Below, piece after piece: positions 4,095-64,000 of a DNA stretch of 64,000 nt (its first letter is position 1; each line of letters opens with the position of its first letter). The notes under the pieces were generated by a model that saw nothing but the letters and a program-made list of their open reading frames with translations, was not told the DNA's origin and searched no databases. A program made the translations under genes and the position numbers. Location: NCBI GenBank assembly GCA_035480035.1, contig DATIID010000001.1, positions 137,323-201,322 of the forward strand, written 5' to 3'. Source of the DNA: Candidatus Saccharimonadales bacterium (GTDB taxonomy: Bacteria; Patescibacteriota; Saccharimonadia; Saccharimonadales; OMJO01).

Positions 4095-5323
4095 TGCAGT
4101 TTGGCAATAATCTCAAGATGGCGTTATCGTCAATCCGCGGATCGAAATGGCGCAGTGTCCTAACAATGATGGGCATTATCATCGGTGTCGTCAGTGTAGT
4201 CACGACGGTCAGCTTGGGCGAAGGCGTGCGTCAACAAATTGCCGGTCAAATCAAACATGTTGGCCAGGACCTAATTACTATCCGTGCCGGTAAAACAATT
4301 AATCGCGACAATCACGGCAACATTACAAGTGTTAATTTACCGGCCACCTTTGCGACCACTGCACTTTCGGAGGGCGATTATTACATCGTTAAAAGCGTGC
4401 CGGGTGTTAAATTGGTATCACCGTTTGATTTAGTTAACGGTACTGTCACAGTCGACGGTCGGACATTTAATAATGGTTTAGTTATCGCTACTTCTGAGGC
4501 AGTGCCTGAATTACTTAATCAACGTGTGGAATTTGGTGCATTCTTTAGTCCAAGCGATGCTAATCAGTACGTCGCTGTGATTGGCCAGACGGTGGCGCGT
4601 GAACTGTTTCATGAAAACGTACCGCTTGGCAAAATGTTCCAAATGCGCGGCCAAAATTTTGTCGTCGGCGGTATTTTCGAAAGATTCGACAACAGTCCTT
4701 TGGCGCCCAACTCCGACTACAACTCAGCTATCTTTATCCCTTACGCTACTGGCAAGCATTTAACACTTGACCAAACCCAAATTTACCAAATACTAGTCAA
4801 GCCAAATGATCCAAAGCAAACTAACCAAACTGCAAGTGCTATTACGGCCGCCTTAGCTTCCAATCACGGTAATCAAACCGACTTTACAGTCTTAAAGCAA
4901 TCCGAAACTTTAGCCGTGGCCAATAAAGTTTTCGATCTATTGACCAGTTTGATTGCCGGCATTGCCGCCATTTCGTTAATTGTCGGCGGCATTGGCATTA
5001 TGAACATTATGTTTGTGTCTGTAACCGAACGGACCCGTGAAATTGGCGTTCGTAAGGCGGTCGGTGCGACCAACCGTCAACTACTAAACCAATTCATGAT
5101 TGAAGCCGCCGTAATTAGTGTCGTTGGCGGTATCTTAGGTGTATTGGTTTCGATTTTGGTCGATTTCTTAATTCGGATTTTTACCAATCTACAACCAATA
5201 ATTACTGTGCCAATAATGTTTATCGCAGTTGGCATGGCACTAATGATTGGGGTTCTATTTGGCATTGCCCCGGCTGTCAAAGCCTCGCGTAAAGACCCGA
5301 TTGAAGCCTTGCGCTACGAGTAA
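4094..5323 (+). CDS. ABC transporter permease (MacB/FtsX family)
   Basis: N-terminal TM, large periplasmic-type domain, C-terminal FtsX-like region (GIGIMNIMFVSVTERTREIGVRKAVGA). Its ATG overlaps the upstream TAA. Confidence 0.8.
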   Translation: MQFGNNLKMALSSIRGSKWRSVLTMMGIIIGVVSVVTTVSLGEGVRQQIAGQIKHVGQDLITIRAGKTINRDNHGNITSVNLPATFATTALSEGDYYIVKSVPGVKLVSPFDLVNGTVTVDGRTFNNGLVIATSEAVPELLNQRVEFGAFFSPSDANQYVAVIGQTVARELFHENVPLGKMFQMRGQNFVVGGIFERFDNSPLAPNSDYNSAIFIPYATGKHLTLDQTQIYQILVKPNDPKQTNQTASAITAALASNHGNQTDFTVLKQSETLAVANKVFDLLTSLIAGIAAISLIVGGIGIMNIMFVSVTERTREIGVRKAVGATNRQLLNQFMIEAAVISVVGGILGVLVSILVDFLIRIFTNLQPIITVPIMFIAVGMALMIGVLFGIAPAVKASRKDPIEALRYE

Positions 5324-6021
5324 GCCTTAATAACTAATAATTGATCAACTGTCACGAATTGATAACCTTGTCTCTTCAATTCCTCGATAATTAATCTAAC
5401 AGCTTCCACTGTTTGGTGCCGGTTGCCGCCGCGGGCATCAAAACCATCATGAAAGATAATGATTGCACCAGGGCGAACTTTTTTGAGCGTCCGTTTAGCC
5501 ATAATTTTAGCTGAGGGCTGAAAAACTTCTAGTTCATGGCCAAAACGCCCAGATACAATTTGTAAGCCCTTTTGCTTAACGGTGGTCATTAGCATCGGCT
5601 GACGCCAAAGCCATGGCGGTCGGAATAAGGCAGGTGTTTGGCCAATTGTCTTGTTAATCAAGACTTGGGTTTTATCAATTTGATGTCGGTAACTTGGTTC
5701 AATGAAGTAACGACCAAACTGATGCGACCAACCATGGTTACCAATGGTGTGGCCAGTTTGAGCGACTCGTTTTACGATTTCCGGGTAACGCTCAACACAT
5801 TTACCAACCATAAAAAACGTAGCTTTAACTTTTTGTCGGTCCAATATATCAAGCAACGCAGAGGTATAAGGTTCATTGGGCCCATCATCAAAAGTTAAGG
5901 CTACCACTTTTTGCTTGGTTTTAACTTGGTATGGGAAACTGCCGAACACTTGCGAAAATGGTGACATAAACAACCAGTAAATTAGAACTAGCGACACTAC
6001 AATAATAACTAGTAGCAACAT
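5314..6021 (-). CDS. polysaccharide deacetylase (NodB homology domain)
   Basis: ALTFDDGPNEPYT...ATFFMVG...GNHGWSH motifs with an N-terminal TM. Confidence 0.8.
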   Translation of the reverse strand: MLLLVIIVVSLVLIYWLFMSPFSQVFGSFPYQVKTKQKVVALTFDDGPNEPYTSALLDILDRQKVKATFFMVGKCVERYPEIVKRVAQTGHTIGNHGWSHQFGRYFIEPSYRHQIDKTQVLINKTIGQTPALFRPPWLWRQPMLMTTVKQKGLQIVSGRFGHELEVFQPSAKIMAKRTLKKVRPGAIIIFHDGFDARGGNRHQTVEAVRLIIEELKRQGYQFVTVDQLLVIKAYS

Positions 6022-6920
6022 TATGGTTTTTTCTTATCTTTATCAATGGCGCGAGAAGTGTCCTTAATAACTCGAGTTGTCTCGTGCACGACATAATGAC
6101 GGGCGTTATGTTGGGTAATTACTAGCGTCAACAAAAAGCCGATAATTGCCGCATTAAACAAGGATAGAATTTTGGGACTAAAATCGTTTCGAAAATGCGG
6201 TGCTGAACCCAAGATGCGTCGTTTAAAGATGCGATTCAAGTTGTACTCTAAAACGTAATAAATCAAAAATGATACAAAGAAGTTATATATAAAACCGCGA
6301 GCTAAACGGCGCGCTGAGGTCAGAGTTGGGTTGCCGTTGGCGAAAACTACCCGGCCTTGTTTACGCAAGTTGCGTAGTAAGTCCAACTCGTCACCACCTT
6401 GAGTTAGTGTGGTGTTGTAGCCGTGCCAGGCTGATTTTTTAAAGGCAATGTTAGTGGCCGTAGCGTAATAAGTCCGACCGGTGACGCGGTATATCGTGCT
6501 TATCAAGCCAAACAATAAATACGGATAGATTAAACCCCAAATCGGGCCATCACTATAGTGGCATGAGCCAACCACAGCGACAGCATCCTTGTGAATCGAA
6601 AAAGTGCCATCAATTCGTGATAGCCAATCTACTCGAAATTGCGTGTCGGCATCAGTTGAGATAACAATCTCGCCCTGAGCCACTTCTGTACCCCTTTGTC
6701 GAGCGTTACAAACACCTGGGTTTTTTTCTTCCACAACATTAGCTCCCAGACTACGGGCTATTTCGGCCGTCGCGTCCGACGAGTTATTATCAACCACGAT
6801 TATTTCAAAACGGCCGGCGAAGTTTTGACGCTTCAAGGACAATAATGTTTCAGCAATGTATGGCGCTTCGTTGTAGGCCGGGATAACTACACTAAAACGC
6901 GGCAGACTTTTATGCTTCAT
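6021..6920 (-). CDS. glycosyltransferase family 2
   Basis: FSVVIPAYNE...VVDNNSSD...STDADT (DxD-type). The start is probably the MKHK Met at 6920 rather than 6971. Confidence 0.75.
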   Translation of the reverse strand: MKHKSLPRFSVVIPAYNEAPYIAETLLSLKRQNFAGRFEIIVVDNNSSDATAEIARSLGANVVEEKNPGVCNARQRGTEVAQGEIVISTDADTQFRVDWLSRIDGTFSIHKDAVAVVGSCHYSDGPIWGLIYPYLLFGLISTIYRVTGRTYYATATNIAFKKSAWHGYNTTLTQGGDELDLLRNLRKQGRVVFANGNPTLTSARRLARGFIYNFFVSFLIYYVLEYNLNRIFKRRILGSAPHFRNDFSPKILSLFNAAIIGFLLTLVITQHNARHYVVHETTRVIKDTSRAIDKDKKKP

Positions 6921-8311: not shown

Positions 8312-9304
8312 ATGGAATTGCCGAATTATTTTATTGAGGAATCTGATAACCGACTGGAGTCAGCCGGCTTTAACGAGCAAAGACTACCTGATTTCCAAAT
8401 TCCCGAAATTCAACACGCCGATAACGGCCCAAATCAACTAGTGTCTTATCAGGTTTTTGGAGATCGTGGTGCTCCTAACTTGATCGTTGAATCAACCACT
8501 TTCTTTACCTACTTGAAAAATGAACACGAAAGTGTTCGCTTGCTAAGTAAGCGACAAGTACTTGGCCCTAATTTTGCTATTGTGGCAATTGATTCTTATG
8601 ATCCAGCTGAAAAGTTTAGCCACGCTGAACGTAAAGAGATAGCCCATGGCTCATTTGCGCCATTATCACAACGTGAGTTAGCCGTGCTGGATCAGCTAAA
8701 CCCTGGCGCTGACCAAAATATCTACAGTTATGGCTACTCAATGGCTGCTGACGTGGCTGTTCAGTTAGCCAATGACAGTCAATTTAACCCTAATCGAGGC
8801 ACTCATGATATAAAGGCGGTCGGGGCGATTGAAATGGCCCGTTCTGTTGATCGCAGTATGTTAGCGGTTATGGGGGCAATGAATTCATCAGGTAAGCGAT
8901 TACCAGAAAATATCATGGATAGTCGAATGCCGGCATTGGAAGAGGCTTGGGGTATAGATGGTCAAGATAAGTATAAAAAGGCAGTTAAAGGTCAAGTTAA
9001 CTCAAGTGTTATAAAATATATTTTAGCTGGTCCTGCTAACAACATTGCCATGGGTCGTGGTTTTGGTACCGATACCTCAACCCAACAATTAACCGAATTA
9101 CTGATCAATAAATCAATGCCAGTCTTGGTTGGCCGCCAGCGACAGTCGACGGTTTGCCCAAGCGAGGTATTTGATAGATTATCAGACTACACTGATCGGG
9201 CGGATCTAACTCTACTCGAAGAGGATAACGATCACTCAGCTGACGATAATTTACGTCTAGCGGCTGCTAGAATTCTTTACTTTGCTTCTGAAGTTGCGGC
9301 TTGA
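8312..9304 (+). CDS. hypothetical protein, alpha/beta-hydrolase-like
   Basis: Possible nucleophile elbow YGYSMAAD and a late DHSADD His. No confident family. Confidence 0.3.
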   Translation: MELPNYFIEESDNRLESAGFNEQRLPDFQIPEIQHADNGPNQLVSYQVFGDRGAPNLIVESTTFFTYLKNEHESVRLLSKRQVLGPNFAIVAIDSYDPAEKFSHAERKEIAHGSFAPLSQRELAVLDQLNPGADQNIYSYGYSMAADVAVQLANDSQFNPNRGTHDIKAVGAIEMARSVDRSMLAVMGAMNSSGKRLPENIMDSRMPALEEAWGIDGQDKYKKAVKGQVNSSVIKYILAGPANNIAMGRGFGTDTSTQQLTELLINKSMPVLVGRQRQSTVCPSEVFDRLSDYTDRADLTLLEEDNDHSADDNLRLAAARILYFASEVAA

Positions 9305-62016: not shown

Positions 62017-62037
62017 CTTTTATCGACCTTTATCGAC
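62017..62037 (-). repeat. tandem direct repeat GTCGATAAAG / GTCGATAAAAG between the leader terminator and the rplJ RBS
   Basis: Read directly. On the plus strand it is CTTTTATCGAC-CTTTATCGAC. Confidence 0.6.
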
Positions 62038-62038
62038 T

Positions 62039-62064
62039 AAAAAAGTCCTTGGTAAACCAAAGAC
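62039..62064 (-). terminator. intrinsic terminator-like hairpin inside the rplJ leader
   Basis: Minus strand: GTCTTTGG-TTTA-CCAAGGAC followed by TTTTTT. The single non-Watson-Crick pair is G.U on the minus strand and C.A on the plus strand. Confidence 0.5.
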
Positions 62065-62144
62065 TTAAACATCATCAATAAATTTATGATTGCCTAGGCG
62101 ACATTATCAAGCTTTTGGCCGTCGCTGTCTTTGGTAACTGGTGA

Positions 62145-62173
62145 ATTATAGGTTATTTTAAGTTATTATTCAA
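62145..62173 (-). promoter_or_regulatory. sigma70-like promoter for rplJL
   Basis: TTGAAT (62173-62168), N17, TATAAT (62150-62145). Confidence 0.5.
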
Positions 62174-62861: not shown

Positions 62862-63137
62862 TCAACCTGCCGACTCTTCAACAGGTATGACTCTGATTTC
62901 TGATTGGCCGACTACACTACCAACTTGCCATGCCTGATGTGGTACATCCCACCGACTTCTTATTGTTTCTTGATGACTTCCGGTTCTAGTTACACCTGTA
63001 ATCGGATCGTAATCCAAAACCATAGTGTCAGGATCCACATCCATTTCTTCACTGGGCACAACCACTGGCTGTGCTTCTATTTTTTGATTATTTACAAACG
63101 GATCACCACTCCATTCGCCTCTTGCCCATATACTCAT
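62862..63137 (-). CDS. hypothetical protein (91 aa)
   Basis: AAGGAG SD 6 nt upstream. No family recognised. Confidence 0.45.
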   Translation of the reverse strand: MSIWARGEWSGDPFVNNQKIEAQPVVVPSEEMDVDPDTMVLDYDPITGVTRTGSHQETIRSRWDVPHQAWQVGSVVGQSEIRVIPVEESAG

Positions 63138-63154
63138 ATTTTTCTCCTTAAATT

Positions 63155-63180
63155 AAAAACAAGCTTCGTTGAAGCCTGTT
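63155..63180 (-). terminator. intrinsic terminator / attenuator hairpin abutting the RBS of 62862..63137
   Basis: Minus strand: AACAGGCTTC-AAC-GAAGCTTGTT followed by TTT (63157-63155), giving the run TTTTT with the stem's last two T, then AATTTAAGGAG. The one non-canonical pair is G.U on the minus strand and A.C on the plus strand. Confidence 0.5.
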
Positions 63181-63287
63181 ATTTTGGACTGTACTAGCGA
63201 GCTTTAGATGCTCGAGGCTTCAACCATACTGAAGCACAGCCCTTGAAGGCTGAGTAGGAGCTGACTTAACAGGTTGAAAACTTTCAC
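63181..63287 (-). promoter_or_regulatory. leader with alternative hairpins and a 27-codon GTG mini-ORF
   Basis: Segments 63235-63230, 63224-63216 and 63180-63168 can pair 1:2 or 2:3. Mini-ORF GTG 63287 to TAA 63204 (VKVFNLLSQLLLSLQGLCFSMVEASSI). Confidence 0.4.
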
Positions 63288-63294
63288 AAATTGA

Positions 63295-63345
63295 ATCGTA
63301 CCACCAAATTAAGCTATTGACAATAGCTAAGTTTGAGCGTACATT
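63295..63345. promoter_or_regulatory. divergent overlapping promoters sharing a palindromic -35
   Basis: Plus strand: TTGACA (63317-63322), N17, TACATT (63340-63345). Minus strand: TTGTCA (63323-63318), N17, TACGAT (63300-63295). 17-bp perfect palindrome AGCTATTG-A-CAATAGCT at 63312-63328. Confidence 0.5.
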
Positions 63346-63466
63346 CTATGCTCGTGAGTAATTTCAATCATCTTGCCAAGACTACAAGTAACCGTATGTA
63401 CGGTTTCATTGTAATTGGCTAATGATTGGAGTTCCGCGAGACTAAAAAAATAAGCAAATCAAATCA
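63346..63466 (+). promoter_or_regulatory. structured leader (long irregular hairpin 63361-63432) with a GTG mini-ORF
   Basis: Helices are 63361-71/63422-32, 63375-79/63415-19, 63383-87/63409-13 and 63390-95/63400-05. GGAGTTCCG (63428-36) can alternatively pair with the terminator 5' arm. Mini-ORF GTG 63354 to TAA 63422. Confidence 0.4.
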
Positions 63467-63499
63467 CCGGACTCCAAACCAAAGGAGTCCGGTTTTTTT
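63467..63499 (+). terminator. strong intrinsic terminator immediately upstream of an RBS
   Basis: CCGGACTCC-AAACCAAA-GGAGTCCGG followed by TTTTTTT, then AAGGAG and ATG 63514. Confidence 0.75.
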
Positions 63500-63513
63500 A
63501 AGGAGAAGCAAAA

Positions 63514-63830
63514 TGGCTAAAGTGAGACGACAAAGATTTGACAATTTTGAACATTCTGCCAAAGATTTGGCAAGGGTCAGACTTGATTATAGTCGCGACG
63601 GAACATTCGACCTGGATTTAATGGAGGGTGTGTCCCAGTTTGCCCACGCTTTAGGCGTCTGTGCTATGTCAAAAGGACAGGGTTCCAGTCGTGCTCGACT
63701 AGAAGCCTTATCAATGAGAGCTATGCAAAACGCCGACAATGATTGGTCTACTTTGGCGGACCAATCTCAACAAATTGTAGTTGACGAATCTCCAACTGAG
63801 AGTATATTAGGGAATCGAGAACAGCAATGA
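63514..63830 (+). CDS. hypothetical protein (105 aa)
   Basis: AAGGAG SD 7 nt before ATG 63514. The track's 63426 start would read through the terminator and is rejected. Confidence 0.5.
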
Positions 63831-64000
63831 TACAAATAGAGGCTGGTGGTTCAGTTTTAGCTGAGACTTTACGGCAACCCATGGATCCGAAAATACTGGG
63901 AGGGTTAGCGGTAGGTAACTTCATCGATGAGACCGTACTACACACTGCCGAAAAACAACTCGAGAATTCATTACAAATGGCTAGTCGGGATGTAACCAGG
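63827..64000 (+). CDS. hypothetical protein (N-terminal part; runs off the right edge)
   Basis: ATGA overlap with the preceding stop. 58 open codons (MIQIEAGGSVLAETLRQPMDPK...) reach the window end. Confidence 0.4.
   Translation, partial: MIQIEAGGSVLAETLRQPMDPKILGGLAVGNFIDETVLHTAEKQLENSLQMASRDVTR

What the first reader, a model, noticed from the sequence alone, without database searches (positions are those of the whole stretch)
63346..63513. Plus-strand leader: long irregular hairpin, riboswitch-like antiterminator/terminator platform and a GTG mini-ORF
Seen downstream of the TACATT -10 box. An extended hairpin spans 63361-63432, with an 11-bp basal helix including two G.U pairs (63361-71/63422-32), then 5-bp, 5-bp and 6-bp helices and an ATGT loop. 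GGAGUUCCG (63428-63436) overlaps the basal helix and can instead pair with the 5' arm CCGGACUCC of a strong terminator. That terminator is a 9-bp stem at 63467-63475/63484-63492 with U7 at 63493-63499, ending 1 nt before the AAGGAG of the 63514 gene (T-tract 63493-63499, AAGGAG 63501-63506). When the basal helix forms, the antiterminator is sequestered and termination is favoured. This is the usual logic of riboswitches and attenuators. A GTG at 63354, 8 nt after the -10 box, opens a 22-codon ORF ending at TAA 63420-63422, just where the 3' arm of the basal helix begins. I do not recognise the fold as any known riboswitch class.
Basis: partly seen in the sequence, partly recalled or inferred. 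Interest (0 to 1): 0.55.

Follow-up and report, generated by a model that had tools for sequence, protein, structure and literature searches.

The report
Leaderless leader-peptide transcription attenuator in Saccharimonadales
The hairpin, terminator and tiny GTG reading frame are all real and conserved in related Saccharimonadales, but together they look like a ribosome-sensing (leader-peptide) transcription attenuator, a well-known kind of switch not reported for this group in the papers I could search, rather than a metabolite-binding riboswitch.

Summary
Promoter, 90-nt hairpin, competing antiterminator, 10-bp terminator with U7, and a 22-codon GTG ORF sit where stated; AAGGAG and the ATG are each 1 nt further left.

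The element is not in Rfam. It is conserved in 18 Saccharimonadales lineages, although most downstream proteins are unrelated ORFans.

In every lineage a GTG lies 7-8 nt after the -10 box, so the mRNA is probably leaderless. It opens an in-frame ORF of 22-27 codons. One lineage has 79 codons through an in-frame insertion. The peptide ends in R-x-Y-G-Φ-V-Φ-V-x-A.

Three mutually exclusive helices covary:
- ORF 5' end, including the start codon, with the stretch just 3' of the stop
- that stretch with the terminator's 5' arm
- the terminator itself

Cognate partners beat non-cognate ones in all 50,000 permutations. This is the four-segment logic of trp/leu-type attenuators, so the mini-ORF rather than a ligand pocket is the likely sensor.

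Two sibling elements support this. One is a divergent Leu-rich leaderless leader sharing the same -35, which precedes leuA-like or ilvA genes in relatives. The other precedes M20 peptidases.

The sensed signal and the regulated genes' function remain unknown. I class it as a new member of a known kind.

The parts
63317..63345 (+). Sigma-70-type promoter of the leader: -35 TTGACA 63317-22, 17-nt spacer, -10 TACATT 63340-45. The -35 overlaps, on the other strand, the -35 (TTGTCA 63323-18) of the divergent leader.
   Evidence: 10/12 match. TTGACA is invariant, and its distance to the GTG is 35-37 nt in 13 of 13 genome loci. The shared back-to-back -35 is conserved in 10 of 12 loci that hold both leaders.
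63354..63422 (+). Leader ORF: GTG plus 21 codons plus TAA (M/V-SNFNHLAKTTSNRMYGFIVIG*). It probably starts at or within 1-2 nt of the transcript's 5' end, i.e. it is leaderless.
   Evidence: A homologous in-frame ORF of 22-27 codons is present in all 18 lineages, and of 79 codons in L209. Stop codons over the homologous stretch are 0 / 38 / 12 in frames 0 / 1 / 2. The second codon position (U) is conserved in the C-terminal hydrophobic codons.
63351..63371 (+). Segment 1: the 5' strand of the basal helix of the long hairpin. It covers the GUG start codon and codons 2-6.
   Evidence: Folds. In 16 of 17 lineages the paired stretch begins within 2 nt of the G of GUG.
63351..63440 (+). Long irregular hairpin (the 1:2 structure) that encloses the whole leader ORF. 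Apex ACCGU-AUGU-ACGGU at 63391-63404.
   Evidence: -28.6 kcal/mol, z = -4.7. Covariation on the CM alignment A7: 70% of cells paired vs 32-41% when slid, 31 pairs with double changes, 0 of 500 shuffles as good. Cognate test.
63422..63440 (+). Segment 2: the 3' strand of the hairpin base. Its core UUGGAGUUC(CG), 63426-36, is the antiterminator strand and begins 4 nt after the stop codon.
   Evidence: (I5, I8). Across lineages the antiterminator strand spans a median of +3 to +15 nt after the stop codon.
63441..63465 (+). A-rich unstructured linker (ACUAAAAAAAUAAGCAAAUCAAAUC). A similar AAGCAAA-type linker occurs in the sibling 'group B' leaders.
   Evidence: Unpaired in all folds. Alignments. 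Group B sequences.
63466..63499 (+). Intrinsic terminator. Segment 3 is ACCGGACUCC 63466-75, which together with AA 63476-77 also pairs with segment 2. Loop 63476-83. Segment 4 is GGAGUCCGGU 63484-93. U7 is 63493-99.
   Evidence: 10 bp, 7 G-C. -19.4 kcal/mol. 93% of cells paired, with 6 of 9 pairs showing double changes (helix 10).
63500..63515 (+). Shine-Dalgarno AAGGAG 63500-05 and ATG 63513-15 of the first regulated gene. There is no room for, and no match to, a separate promoter between terminator and gene.
63513..63830 (+). Regulated gene 1: a 105-aa ORFan with no Pfam, NCBIfam, PHROG or PADLOC hit. The AF2 model has low confidence (mean pLDDT 54, pTM 0.28); it draws four helices, which should be treated as unreliable.
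   Evidence: Two homologues (42% and 39% identity) lie in the same synteny behind the same leader.
63827..64000 (+). Start of regulated gene 2: a 147-aa ORFan that overlaps gene 1 by 4 nt, runs off the window, and is convergent with thyX-tmk.

Best explanation
The element is a ribosome-mediated (leader-peptide) transcription attenuator.

Layout:
- Transcription starts about 7-8 nt after TACATT, so the RNA begins at or next to GUG 63354 and the 22-codon leader ORF is translated from a leaderless 5' end.
- Four RNA segments compete. Segment 1 is 63351-71 (start codon and first codons). Segment 2 is 63422-40 (immediately 3' of the stop codon). Segment 3 is 63466-77 and segment 4 is 63484-93 (the terminator arms).

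Three outcomes:
- No ribosome loads. 1:2 forms the long hairpin, 3:4 forms, and RNA polymerase terminates at U7, giving a terminated RNA of about 146 nt. Its start codon is locked in the helix.
- A ribosome translates smoothly and reaches UAA. It sits on segment 2, whose antiterminator strand lies +4 to +17 nt after the stop. Again 3:4 forms and transcription ends.
- The ribosome is slowed inside the ORF. The most likely place is the conserved C-terminal run of hydrophobic Gly-Phe/Leu-Val/Ile codons. Then 1:2 cannot close around the ribosome, segment 2 is free and pairs with segment 3 as it emerges. The terminator cannot form, and polymerase reads into the 105-aa and 147-aa genes, which have no promoter of their own.

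Shown by computation: the anatomy, conservation, coding character of the ORF, and covariation of all three helices.

Inferred: the transcription start, translation of the ORF, the direction of the switch, and above all the signal. My guess is the supply of charged branched-chain (Ile/Val/Leu) tRNAs; confidence in that guess is low.
For: 1. Conservation independent of the cargo.
- nhmmer and a CM find the element in 17 further Saccharimonadales lineages, in the same place between thyX and rplJ.
- tblastn finds none of the four flanking proteins in the 80 related genome loci.

2. Leaderless ORF.
- The TTGACA-to-GTG distance is 35-37 nt in 13 of 13 genome loci, which puts the GTG 7-8 nt after the -10 box.
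- The ORF is open for 22-27 codons in every lineage.
- L209 carries a 55-codon insertion that stays in frame and open, while frame 1 is closed by 5 stops (frame 2 also has none), and it keeps the N-terminus MSxYFNHII and the C-terminus RMFGLVIVLA*.
- Stops per frame are 0 / 38 / 12.
- Codon periodicity: the second-position U is conserved in the hydrophobic codons.

3. Three mutually exclusive helices covary (N = 17).
- Antiterminator: -15.8 vs -11.3 kcal/mol, z = -6.7.
- Hairpin base: -15.9 vs -11.4 kcal/mol, z = -5.9.
- Terminator: -14.1 vs -10.1 kcal/mol.
- No permutation of 50,000 was as good for any of the three.
- The controls 1x3, 1x4 and 2x4 are flat.
- Explicit compensatory examples: UGGAAUCCG/CGGAUUCCA in L008, GGAGCC/GGCUCC in L011, CUCGGA/UCCGAG in L023.

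4. Geometry fits a ribosome sensor.
- The antiterminator strand starts a median of 3 nt and ends a median of 15 nt after the stop codon.
- Segment 1 starts at the GUG.

5. Folding of partial transcripts gives the predicted alternatives.

6. There is no promoter and only 13 nt between the U-tract and the ATG.

7. Sibling elements built the same way.
- The divergent leader 63287-63148 encodes a leaderless Leu-run peptide. In relatives it precedes HMGL-like (leuA-type) genes, and an Ile-rich version precedes ilvA.
- 'Group B' leaderless ORFs with a covarying antiterminator precede M20 peptidase operons.

8. Precedent: leaderless leader peptides proposed or shown as attenuators in Deinococcus deserti (PMC4007540) and mycobacteria (10.1101/834739).
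Against: - No experimental transcription start, ribosome profiling or Term-seq exists for this organism.
- The leader peptide has no run of one amino acid, unlike trp/leu/his leaders. Overall enrichment is modest: Ile 1.5x, Met 2x, Thr 1.5x, and Cys 5.6x mostly from one structural column. The window's own peptide lacks the Ile-Ile doublet common in relatives.
- The regulated genes are ORFans with no link to amino-acid metabolism.
- A stalled ribosome does not physically cover segment 1, as it does in trp. The claim that 1:2 cannot close around a ribosome is a steric argument, not a result.
- RNA structure and coding constraints overlap everywhere in the ORF, so peptide conservation cannot be cleanly separated from helix conservation.
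- In 7 lineages the next gene lies more than 100 nt beyond the terminator, behind a further structured UTR.
- The CM alignment used is fitted to the structure.
Confidence: 0.65

Rival explanations
1. It is a metabolite- or ion-binding riboswitch. The long hairpin is an aptamer whose ligand-bound form holds segment 2 and so favours the terminator. The ORF is incidental.
For: - The hairpin is stable and conserved, and the expression platform (antiterminator/terminator) is real.
- There is no Rfam match, so it would be a new class.
Against: - The reading frame, start and stop are conserved in 18 of 18 lineages, with codon-phase conservation.
- A 165-nt in-frame insertion sits in the middle of the would-be aptamer in L209.
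- The inner helices are only 52-78% paired, with no block of conserved unpaired nucleotides typical of ligand pockets.
- The downstream genes differ between lineages, so they give no common ligand logic.
Confidence: 0.04
2. It is a stand-alone gene for a functional 22-aa hydrophobic-tailed micro-protein (for example a membrane-active peptide or type-I-toxin-like product) and/or a roughly 146-nt small RNA with its own terminator. The 5'-3' hairpin only limits its translation. Expression of the downstream genes by read-through is a by-product.
For: - The peptide motif R-x-Y-G-Φ-V-Φ-V-x-A* and the N-terminal x-F-N/Q-H-I-I are conserved.
- The start codon is locked in a long 5'-3' helix, as in many type I toxin mRNAs (my own knowledge).
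- In 7 lineages the next ORF lies more than 100 nt away.
- Attenuator leader peptides and terminated leaders can act in trans, as peTrpL and rnTrpL do (abstracts listed).
Against: - The covarying antiterminator has no role if termination is meant to be constitutive.
- The hydrophobic stretch is only 6-8 residues, and the peptide carries K/R/N/H/T throughout, so it is too short and too polar for a membrane helix.
- In L209 the peptide takes a 55-residue insertion.
- No antisense promoter or antisense RNA partner is evident.
- The window's downstream gene has no promoter of its own.
- This rival is not exclusive of the attenuator model.
Confidence: 0.15
3. It is a protein- or factor-mediated antitermination leader. 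A trans-acting protein, for example a product of the operon or a global RNA-binding protein, binds the hairpin or segment 2 and decides between the antiterminator and the terminator.
For: - The next leader in the same region, the L10 leader at 62030-62152, works this way in Bacillus (Rfam hit; PMC4538822 listed).
- The conserved hairpin apex GCCGY-N4-6-ACGG could be a protein site.
Against: - The operon proteins are not conserved while the leader is, which rules out autoregulation by them.
- This model does not explain the conserved frame, the start at the 5' end, or the stop codon placed 3 nt before the antiterminator strand.
Confidence: 0.08

Closest known systems
Classical amino-acid leader-peptide attenuators (E. 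coli trp, leu, ilvGMEDA, ilvBN, thr, his, pheA leaders)
   Same: - Promoter-proximal short ORF and an intrinsic terminator just upstream of the first structural gene.
- Four segments forming mutually exclusive 1:2, 2:3 and 3:4 helices.
- A stop codon placed so that a terminating ribosome masks segment 2.
- 'Superattenuation' when the ORF is not translated.
- The C-terminal codons are Val/Ile/Leu/Phe-rich, as in the ilv leaders (my own knowledge of those peptides).
   Different: - No Shine-Dalgarno: the ORF starts with GUG at the 5' end of the RNA.
- The start codon itself is part of segment 1, and the whole ORF lies inside the 1:2 hairpin.
- No tandem run of one regulatory codon.
- The cargo is a pair of fast-evolving ORFans rather than a biosynthetic operon.
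- No sequence or CM similarity to the Rfam leader families.
Leaderless leader peptides or short ORFs proposed or shown as attenuators in Deinococcus deserti (14 predicted; PMC4007540) and mycobacteria (poly-Cys leaderless sORFs; 10.1101/834739). Leader peptides of trpE, leuA, ilvB and aroF in Corynebacterium glutamicum (PMC3890552) are a related case.
   Same: - A 5'-AUG/GUG leaderless short ORF as the first cistron.
- Ribosome progress on that ORF controls the downstream genes.
   Different: - Those ORFs are rich in the cognate amino acid and precede tRNA-synthetase or biosynthesis genes.
- The mycobacterial ones act by unmasking a ribosome-binding site, not through an intrinsic terminator.
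- The element here belongs to a different phylum (Patescibacteria/CPR) and is a different sequence family.
The two sibling leaders found here in Saccharimonadales: the divergent Leu/Ile-run leader (window 63287-63148, minus strand) and the 'group B' leaders upstream of M20 peptidases
   Same: - Same promoter type, a leaderless start 6-9 nt after the -10 box, a short ORF, an A-rich linker, a covarying antiterminator/terminator, and the same genomic hotspot.
- Group B is linked to this family by nhmmer and by the CM: L020 scores 43 bits.
   Different: - The Leu/Ile leader has an obvious regulatory codon run (LLLGL or IIILSL) and, in some lineages, matching cargo (HMGL-like, IlvA).
- In group B the antiterminator lies inside the ORF's 3' end (GSKERG codons) rather than after the stop.
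Antibiotic-responsive leader-peptide attenuators (ermC/ermA leaders; transcriptional ones such as bmrCD, mef/mel)
   Same: - Short ORF, ribosome stalling and alternative hairpins.
- The transcriptional versions use a terminator (PMC4191407 and PMC4335068, listed).
- The C-terminal Φ-V-Φ-V stretch recalls the IFVI/IAVV stalling motifs of Erm leaders (my own knowledge; a resemblance, not a test).
   Different: - No resistance gene lies downstream.
- There is no evidence of drug dependence.
- In Erm leaders the stalling motifs are not at the extreme C-terminus next to a stop codon.

Membership tests
Ribosome-mediated (leader-peptide) transcription attenuator | A short ORF at the 5' end of the leader that is translated | tested here: inconclusive
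   Comparative evidence for coding is strong: the ORF is open and in frame in 18 of 18 lineages, L209 has an in-frame 55-codon insertion, stops per frame are 0/38/12, and there is codon periodicity. Translation itself cannot be shown with these tools.
Ribosome-mediated (leader-peptide) transcription attenuator | An intrinsic terminator between the leader ORF and the first structural gene | tested here: met
   A 10-bp G+C-rich stem plus U7 at 63466-63499, 13 nt before the ATG. It is conserved, with compensatory changes.
Ribosome-mediated (leader-peptide) transcription attenuator | Mutually exclusive 1:2, 2:3 (antiterminator) and 3:4 (terminator) pairings, conserved in relatives | tested here: met
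   In the cognate versus non-cognate duplex tests, none of 50,000 permutations was as good for any of the three helices, and the negative controls were flat. Pair counts are and partial-transcript folds.
Ribosome-mediated (leader-peptide) transcription attenuator | The stop codon is positioned so that a terminating ribosome occludes segment 2 | tested here: met
   The antiterminator strand spans a median of +3 to +15 nt after the stop codon in 17 lineages, and +4 to +17 nt in the window.
Ribosome-mediated (leader-peptide) transcription attenuator | A run of regulatory codons cognate to the end-product of the regulated operon | tested here: not met
   There is no single-amino-acid run, only a C-terminal cluster of mixed Val/Ile/Leu/Phe codons and modest Ile/Met/Thr enrichment. 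The cargo is of unknown function. This feature defines the amino-acid subclass, not ribosome-mediated attenuation as such.
Riboswitch (any class) | A conserved ligand-binding aptamer: conserved junction or loop nucleotides, an architecture intolerant of large insertions, and a match to a known class or a coherent gene association | tested here: not met
   - No Rfam hit at gathering or E <= 10 thresholds.
- Conservation follows codon phase.
- L209 has a 165-nt insertion inside the hairpin.
- The cargo is unrelated between lineages.
Riboswitch (any class) | Direct ligand binding by the RNA | not testable with these tools
   This needs in-line probing, SHAPE or ITC.
Type I toxin-antitoxin (hydrophobic peptide mRNA plus antisense RNA) | A peptide with a membrane-spanning hydrophobic helix, and an overlapping or adjacent antisense RNA gene | tested here: not met
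   The hydrophobic stretch is 6-8 residues and the rest of the peptide is polar or basic. No antisense promoter is found within 63346-63513. The 5'-3' helix that sequesters the start codon is the only shared trait.
Rfam leader families (Leu_leader, Trp_leader, His_leader, Thr_leader, leu/phe leader, L10_leader) | A covariance-model match at or near the gathering score | tested here: not met
   Nothing matches in 63100-63650 except chance-level hits at 22 bits or less. The L10 leader hit is a separate element at 62030-62152.

The most novel reading that the evidence does not exclude
The conserved C-terminal motif R-x-Y-G-Φ-V-Φ-V-x-A-stop may be a nascent-chain arrest sequence rather than a hungry-codon sensor. 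It would stall the ribosome only when a small molecule occupies the exit tunnel or peptidyl-transferase centre, for example a host-derived metabolite or a macrolide-type antibiotic made by actinobacterial hosts. Epibiotic Saccharimonadales would then use a one-shot, leaderless, co-transcriptional sensor to switch on rapidly evolving ORFan cassettes, possibly host-interaction genes, in a hypervariable hotspot next to rplJ.
Probability: 0.1. Interest if true: 0.75.

Novelty: new member of a known kind. Interest (0 to 1): 0.45.

Why it matters
Candidate-phyla-radiation bacteria such as Saccharimonadales have tiny genomes and few recognisable regulators, and I found almost nothing on their cis-regulatory RNAs. 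In the held literature I found no report of leader-peptide attenuation or of leaderless translation in this group.

The window and its relatives show at least three related families of leaderless short-ORF attenuators:
- a Leu/Ile type,
- an M20-peptidase type,
- the present type with an unknown signal.

If the model is right, these host-dependent, amino-acid-auxotrophic cells read their translational status directly to control genes. They also start translation at a 5'-terminal GUG or AUG. Some of the genes under this control are lineage-specific ORFans in a hypervariable spot between thyX and rplJ.

Practical consequences:
- It gives annotators a conserved 22-27-codon gene that gene callers miss.
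- It gives a covariance model for an RNA family absent from Rfam.
- It gives experimenters a compact, testable switch.

Tried and rejected
- Rfam: a gathering scan of the whole window and an E <= 10 scan of 63100-63650 gave only chance-level hits in the region (Lig thermometer 22 bits, mir-29, freshwater-2). Ten related loci gave only L10 leaders.
- Homology of the cargo. The 105-aa protein found only itself in the word-indexed search and two real relatives in the exhaustive search. A third hit, a 1405-aa repeat protein, matched on a low-complexity RDGTYDVDYDDG stretch and was discarded. The 147-aa protein found only itself. Pfam, NCBIfam, PHROGs and PADLOC were all empty. The AF2 model of the 105-aa protein has pLDDT 54, so no fold search was run.
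- All-against-all BLASTP and jackhmmer of the downstream proteins of 14 lineages. Apart from the p105/p147 homologues and one 57/64-aa pair, they are unrelated.
- MAFFT plus RNAalifold on 13 homologues recovered only the hairpin apex and the terminator, because the arms are misaligned. I therefore used an alignment-free cognate versus non-cognate duplex test.
- A single-sequence CM (R1) was too weak and gave partial matches. A 9-sequence CM (R2) worked.
Only 2 of 120 loci were true members, so the pattern was far less specific than I had estimated.
- Looking for a regulatory amino acid by composition: no run, only modest Ile/Met/Thr enrichment.
- A scan of the 64-kb window for other promoter + leaderless short ORF + terminator units found only the two divergent leaders.
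- I considered and dropped two ideas. First, that the terminator serves a convergent gene: the neighbouring gene is divergent, and the minus strand has no U-tract. Second, that the ORF from TTG 63426, in frame with the 105-aa gene, is the real start: it runs through the terminator and has no SD.
Full report
**1. The observation**

- TTGACA 63317-22, a 17-nt spacer and TACATT 63340-45 form the best plus-strand promoter match in the region (10/12).
- GTG 63354 lies 8 nt after the -10 box and opens 22 sense codons that end at TAA 63420-22.
- The 11-bp basal helix 63361-71/63422-32 has two G.U pairs. The inner 5-, 5- and 6-bp helices with the AUGU loop are the minimum-free-energy fold. The fold also adds 63351-56/63435-40, so the GUG is itself paired.
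- The terminator is a 10-bp stem with 7 G-C pairs at 63466-93, followed by U7.
- Two coordinates are off by one: AAGGAG is 63500-05 and the ATG is 63513.
- The leader folds far better than shuffles (z = -8.2 for 63346-63513 and -4.7 for the hairpin).
- With segment 1 withheld and segment 4 not yet transcribed, the predicted antiterminator is the MFE structure (-12.2 kcal/mol, z = -3.0).

**2. Context**

- The window comes from a Candidatus Saccharimonadales (TM7) metagenome-assembled genome (source name).
- The gene order is rplK, rplA, tmk, dcd, thyX-tmk fusion (minus strand); then the 147-aa and 105-aa genes (plus strand); then this intergenic region; then the 91-aa and 180-aa genes (minus strand); then the L10 leader, rplJ and rplL.
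- The four small proteins have no Pfam, NCBIfam, PHROG or PADLOC family.
- None of them is encoded in 80 related Saccharimonadales loci fetched through the thyX-tmk protein.
- In those loci the distance from thyX to rplJ ranges from 277 to 5,459 bp, so this is a hypervariable spot.

**3. The non-coding DNA is conserved although the genes are not**

- nhmmer with the 375-nt intergenic region finds it at full length in 9 loci and in part in about 35 more.
- The plus-strand element, which I call group A, is present in 13 of the 80 genome loci: L005, L006, L008, L011, L012, L023, L027, L037, L046, L062, L066, L068 and L083.
- It is also present in two metagenome contigs (L128, L167).
- It lies upstream of the only two homologues of the 105-aa protein that an exhaustive search found (P0002 in L205 and P0004 in L209).
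- A covariance model built from nine members recovers six non-training members at 45-72 bits and nothing unrelated.
- No Rfam family matches in the window or in ten relatives.

**4. The mini-ORF is real**

- In all 13 genome loci the distance from TTGACA to the GTG is 35-37 nt, which places the GTG 7-8 nt after the -10 hexamer, where transcription should start. The GTG sits in a conserved YCGTGA.
- From that GTG, every one of the 18 lineages has an open frame of 22-27 codons, and the stop falls at the 3' foot of the hairpin.
- Over the homologous stretch, frames 0/1/2 hold 0/38/12 stop codons.
- The peptides share x-F-N/Q-H-I-I near the N-terminus and R-x-Y-G-Φ-V-Φ-V-x-A at the C-terminus.
- In the hydrophobic codons the second position (U) is conserved while positions 1 and 3 vary. 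That is a coding signature.
- The strongest single case is L209. A 165-nt insertion in the middle of the hairpin stays in frame and open (79 codons). Frame 1 is closed by 5 stops, though frame 2 also has none. Both peptide ends are kept.
- With only 7-8 nt between the -10 box and the start there is no room for a Shine-Dalgarno sequence, so translation would have to be leaderless. That is an inference; no 5'-end data exist.

**5. Three competing helices covary**

Sequence alignment misplaces the hairpin arms. I therefore compared, without alignment, the duplex energy of each lineage's own partner segments with that of partners taken from other lineages (N = 17).

| Pairing | Cognate (kcal/mol) | Non-cognate (kcal/mol) | z |
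|---|---|---|---|
| Segment 2 x segment 3 (antiterminator) | -15.8 | -11.3 | -6.7 |
| Segment 1 x segment 2 (hairpin base) | -15.9 | -11.4 | -5.9 |
| Segment 3 x segment 4 (terminator) | -14.1 | -10.1 | -6.2 |

- For none of the three was any of 50,000 permutations as good.
- The control pairings 1x3, 1x4 and 2x4 show no cognate advantage.
- Against composition-preserving shuffles the mean z is -4.4 for the antiterminator and -2.5 for the hairpin base.
- Examples of compensation: UGGAAUCCG/CGGAUUCCA in L008, GGAGCC/GGCUCC in L011 and CUCGGA/UCCGAG in L023.
- On the CM alignment, hairpin plus terminator are 70% paired against 32-41% when slid. 31 pairs show double changes, and 0 of 500 shuffles are as good. 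This alignment is fitted to that structure.
- The antiterminator, to which the alignment was not fitted, is 70.5% paired against 22-56% when slid. Its covariation score is 0.162 against 0.083 or less, and 8 of 500 shuffles are as good.

**6. Geometry**

- Segment 1 begins within 2 nt of the G of GUG in 16 of 17 lineages.
- The antiterminator strand runs from a median of +3 to +15 nt after the stop codon.
- Established knowledge is that a ribosome with a stop codon in its A site covers roughly that stretch.
- Only 13 nt, with no promoter match, separate the U-tract from the ATG of the 105-aa gene. That gene therefore depends on read-through.

**7. Mechanism (inferred)**

This is the four-segment logic of the trp/leu attenuators.
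- Without a ribosome, 1:2 forms, then 3:4 forms, and transcription stops. The released 146-nt RNA has its start codon locked in the helix, so only a ribosome that loads co-transcriptionally can sense anything.
- A ribosome that runs to the stop codon masks segment 2. Again 3:4 forms and transcription stops.
- A ribosome held inside the ORF keeps 1:2 open and leaves segment 2 free to capture segment 3. Polymerase then reads through.
- The signal is not established. The most conserved codons are the C-terminal Gly-Φ-Val-Φ-Val stretch. Ile is 1.5-fold enriched, but there is no run of one amino acid.
- My working guess is the supply of charged branched-chain tRNAs. A nascent-peptide arrest that needs a small molecule is not excluded.

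**8. Sibling elements strengthen the reading**

(a) The divergent leader of the 91-aa gene.
- It starts with its own leaderless GTG (63287), 7 nt after TACGAT.
- Its -35 (TTGTCA 63323-18) is the reverse complement of the plus-strand -35. The two leaders therefore share one palindromic -35, and this arrangement is kept in 10 of 12 loci that hold both.
- It encodes MKVFNLLSQLLLSLQGLCFSMVEASSI, and 26 relatives encode x-LLL(G/S)L-x-GLCF(S/T)MVEA.
- It has a 1:2 / 2:3 / 3:4 set: 63237-31, 63226-15, 63177-68 and 63166-58, followed by a U-rich tail before AAGGAG.
- In L009, L067 and L205 it precedes an HMGL-like (leuA-type) gene. In L062 an Ile-rich version precedes threonine dehydratase.
- This sibling looks like a textbook Leu/Ile attenuator.

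(b) 'Group B' leaders.
- They are found in L017, L019, L020, L054, L055, L080, L028 and L029.
- Each has a leaderless ATG 7-9 nt after the -10 box, a peptide of the type M..MILGLVIFGSKERG, the same A-rich linker and a similar terminator.
- The antiterminator lies inside the ORF's 3' end. It still covaries: -19.0 vs -15.9 kcal/mol, p = 0.017, N = 8, with GGAUUUGAGCGUCG/CCGAGCUCAAAUCC replacing GGAGCGCGG/CCGGGCUCC.
- They precede operons that contain M20 peptidases.

**9. Comparison with what is known**

- Leader-peptide attenuation is textbook.
- Leaderless leader peptides have been predicted in Deinococcus deserti (14 cases; PMC4007540).
- Leader peptides for trpE, leuA, ilvB and aroF are reported in Corynebacterium glutamicum (PMC3890552).
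- Leaderless poly-Cys short ORFs attenuate translation in mycobacteria (10.1101/834739).
- I found nothing on attenuators or leaderless translation in Saccharibacteria or Patescibacteria in the held library.
- The present element is therefore a new sequence family and a first for its phylum, as far as I can see, but it belongs to a known mechanistic kind.
- Its unusual traits are these: the start codon is part of segment 1, the whole ORF is enclosed by the 1:2 hairpin, there is no codon run, and the cargo consists of fast-evolving ORFans.

**10. Rivals**

- Riboswitch. This is contradicted by the conserved frame, the codon-phase conservation and the large in-frame insertion.
- Stand-alone micro-protein or small-RNA gene. 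This cannot be excluded as an additional role, but it does not explain the covarying antiterminator or the promoterless downstream gene.
- Protein-mediated antitermination. This would not explain the ORF, and the operon's proteins are not conserved.

**11. Limits**

- All evidence is computational.
- The sequences are related to one another, so the permutation counts are not exact probabilities.
- The CM alignment leans towards its own structure.
- The transcription start, the translation of the ORF, the direction of regulation and the signal are all inferred.

Noticed in passing
window 63148-63323, minus strand: The divergent leader of the 91-aa gene is itself a leaderless leader-peptide attenuator.
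- Promoter TTGTCA 63323-18 / TACGAT 63300-295.
- GTG 63287 opens MKVFNLLSQLLLSLQGLCFSMVEASSI* (8 Leu in 27 residues; stop at 63204-06).
- The alternative pairings are 63237-31 / 63226-15 / 63177-68 / 63166-58, followed by a U-rich tail and then AAGGAG.
- Its 48-nt core (63213-63261) is about 90% identical across genomes whose proteins are only 60-70% identical.
- In relatives it precedes HMGL-like (leuA-type) genes or, in an Ile-rich version, ilvA. Here it precedes two ORFans.
   Followed up: partly
window 63295-63345 (palindrome 63298-63342, centre 63320): The two leaders are transcribed back to back from promoters whose -35 hexamers overlap on opposite strands (TTGACA/TTGTCA within AGCTATTGACAATAGCT). 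Two polymerases probably cannot bind at once. The arrangement is conserved in 10 of 12 loci that hold both leaders. The palindrome could also be an operator.
   Followed up: partly
L017 8424-8559, L019, L020 8435-8530, L054, L055, L080, L028, L029: A related 'group B' leader has a leaderless ATG ORF (M..MILGLVIFGSKERG*). The antiterminator lies inside the ORF's 3' end, and the linker and terminator are similar to this element's. It sits upstream of a ~380-aa unknown protein plus an M20 peptidase (ArgE/DapE-like).
   Followed up: partly
between thyX-tmk and rplJ: window ~62166 to beyond 64000; loci L005-L084: This interval is a hypervariable hotspot. It is 277-5,459 bp long in 63 related genomes and is filled with unrelated small ORFans, while the leaders in it are conserved. 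The window's four small proteins (91, 180, 105 and 147 aa) have no family in Pfam, NCBIfam, PHROGs or PADLOC.
   Followed up: partly
L005 ~6625-6760, L006 ~5260-5393, L012 ~9035-9160, L027, L046 ~8946-9045, L066, L128 (minus strand of each locus): In seven lineages the terminator is followed by a further conserved structured 5' UTR of about 130 nt. It consists of a variable hairpin, a hairpin GGRAG-N5-CUYCC (GGAAGCACCGCUUCC is identical in three lineages), one more hairpin, and a conserved ACAAUUUGGAGGAA ribosome-binding region before a small gene. There is no Rfam match. Its function is unknown.
   Followed up: no
window 62030-62152, minus strand: The ribosomal protein L10 leader (RF00557, 50.3 bits) lies upstream of rplJ/rplL. 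The L7/L12 protein here (153 aa) carries an N-terminal extension, [35 protein letters not shown], which is also present in L027.
   Followed up: no
window ~63213-63221; L002, L003, L004 position 1: Three independent Logan assemblies of the same organism break at the highly conserved core of the minus-strand leader. This suggests that the block is shared by co-occurring strains or exists in several copies and confuses assemblers. L057 and L076 each carry two copies of this leader.
   Followed up: no
L209 3660-3860: The leader ORF of this lineage holds a 55-codon in-frame insertion, giving a 79-aa product, inside the hairpin. It may be a natural experiment on how far the ribosome can travel before the decision point.
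   Followed up: partly
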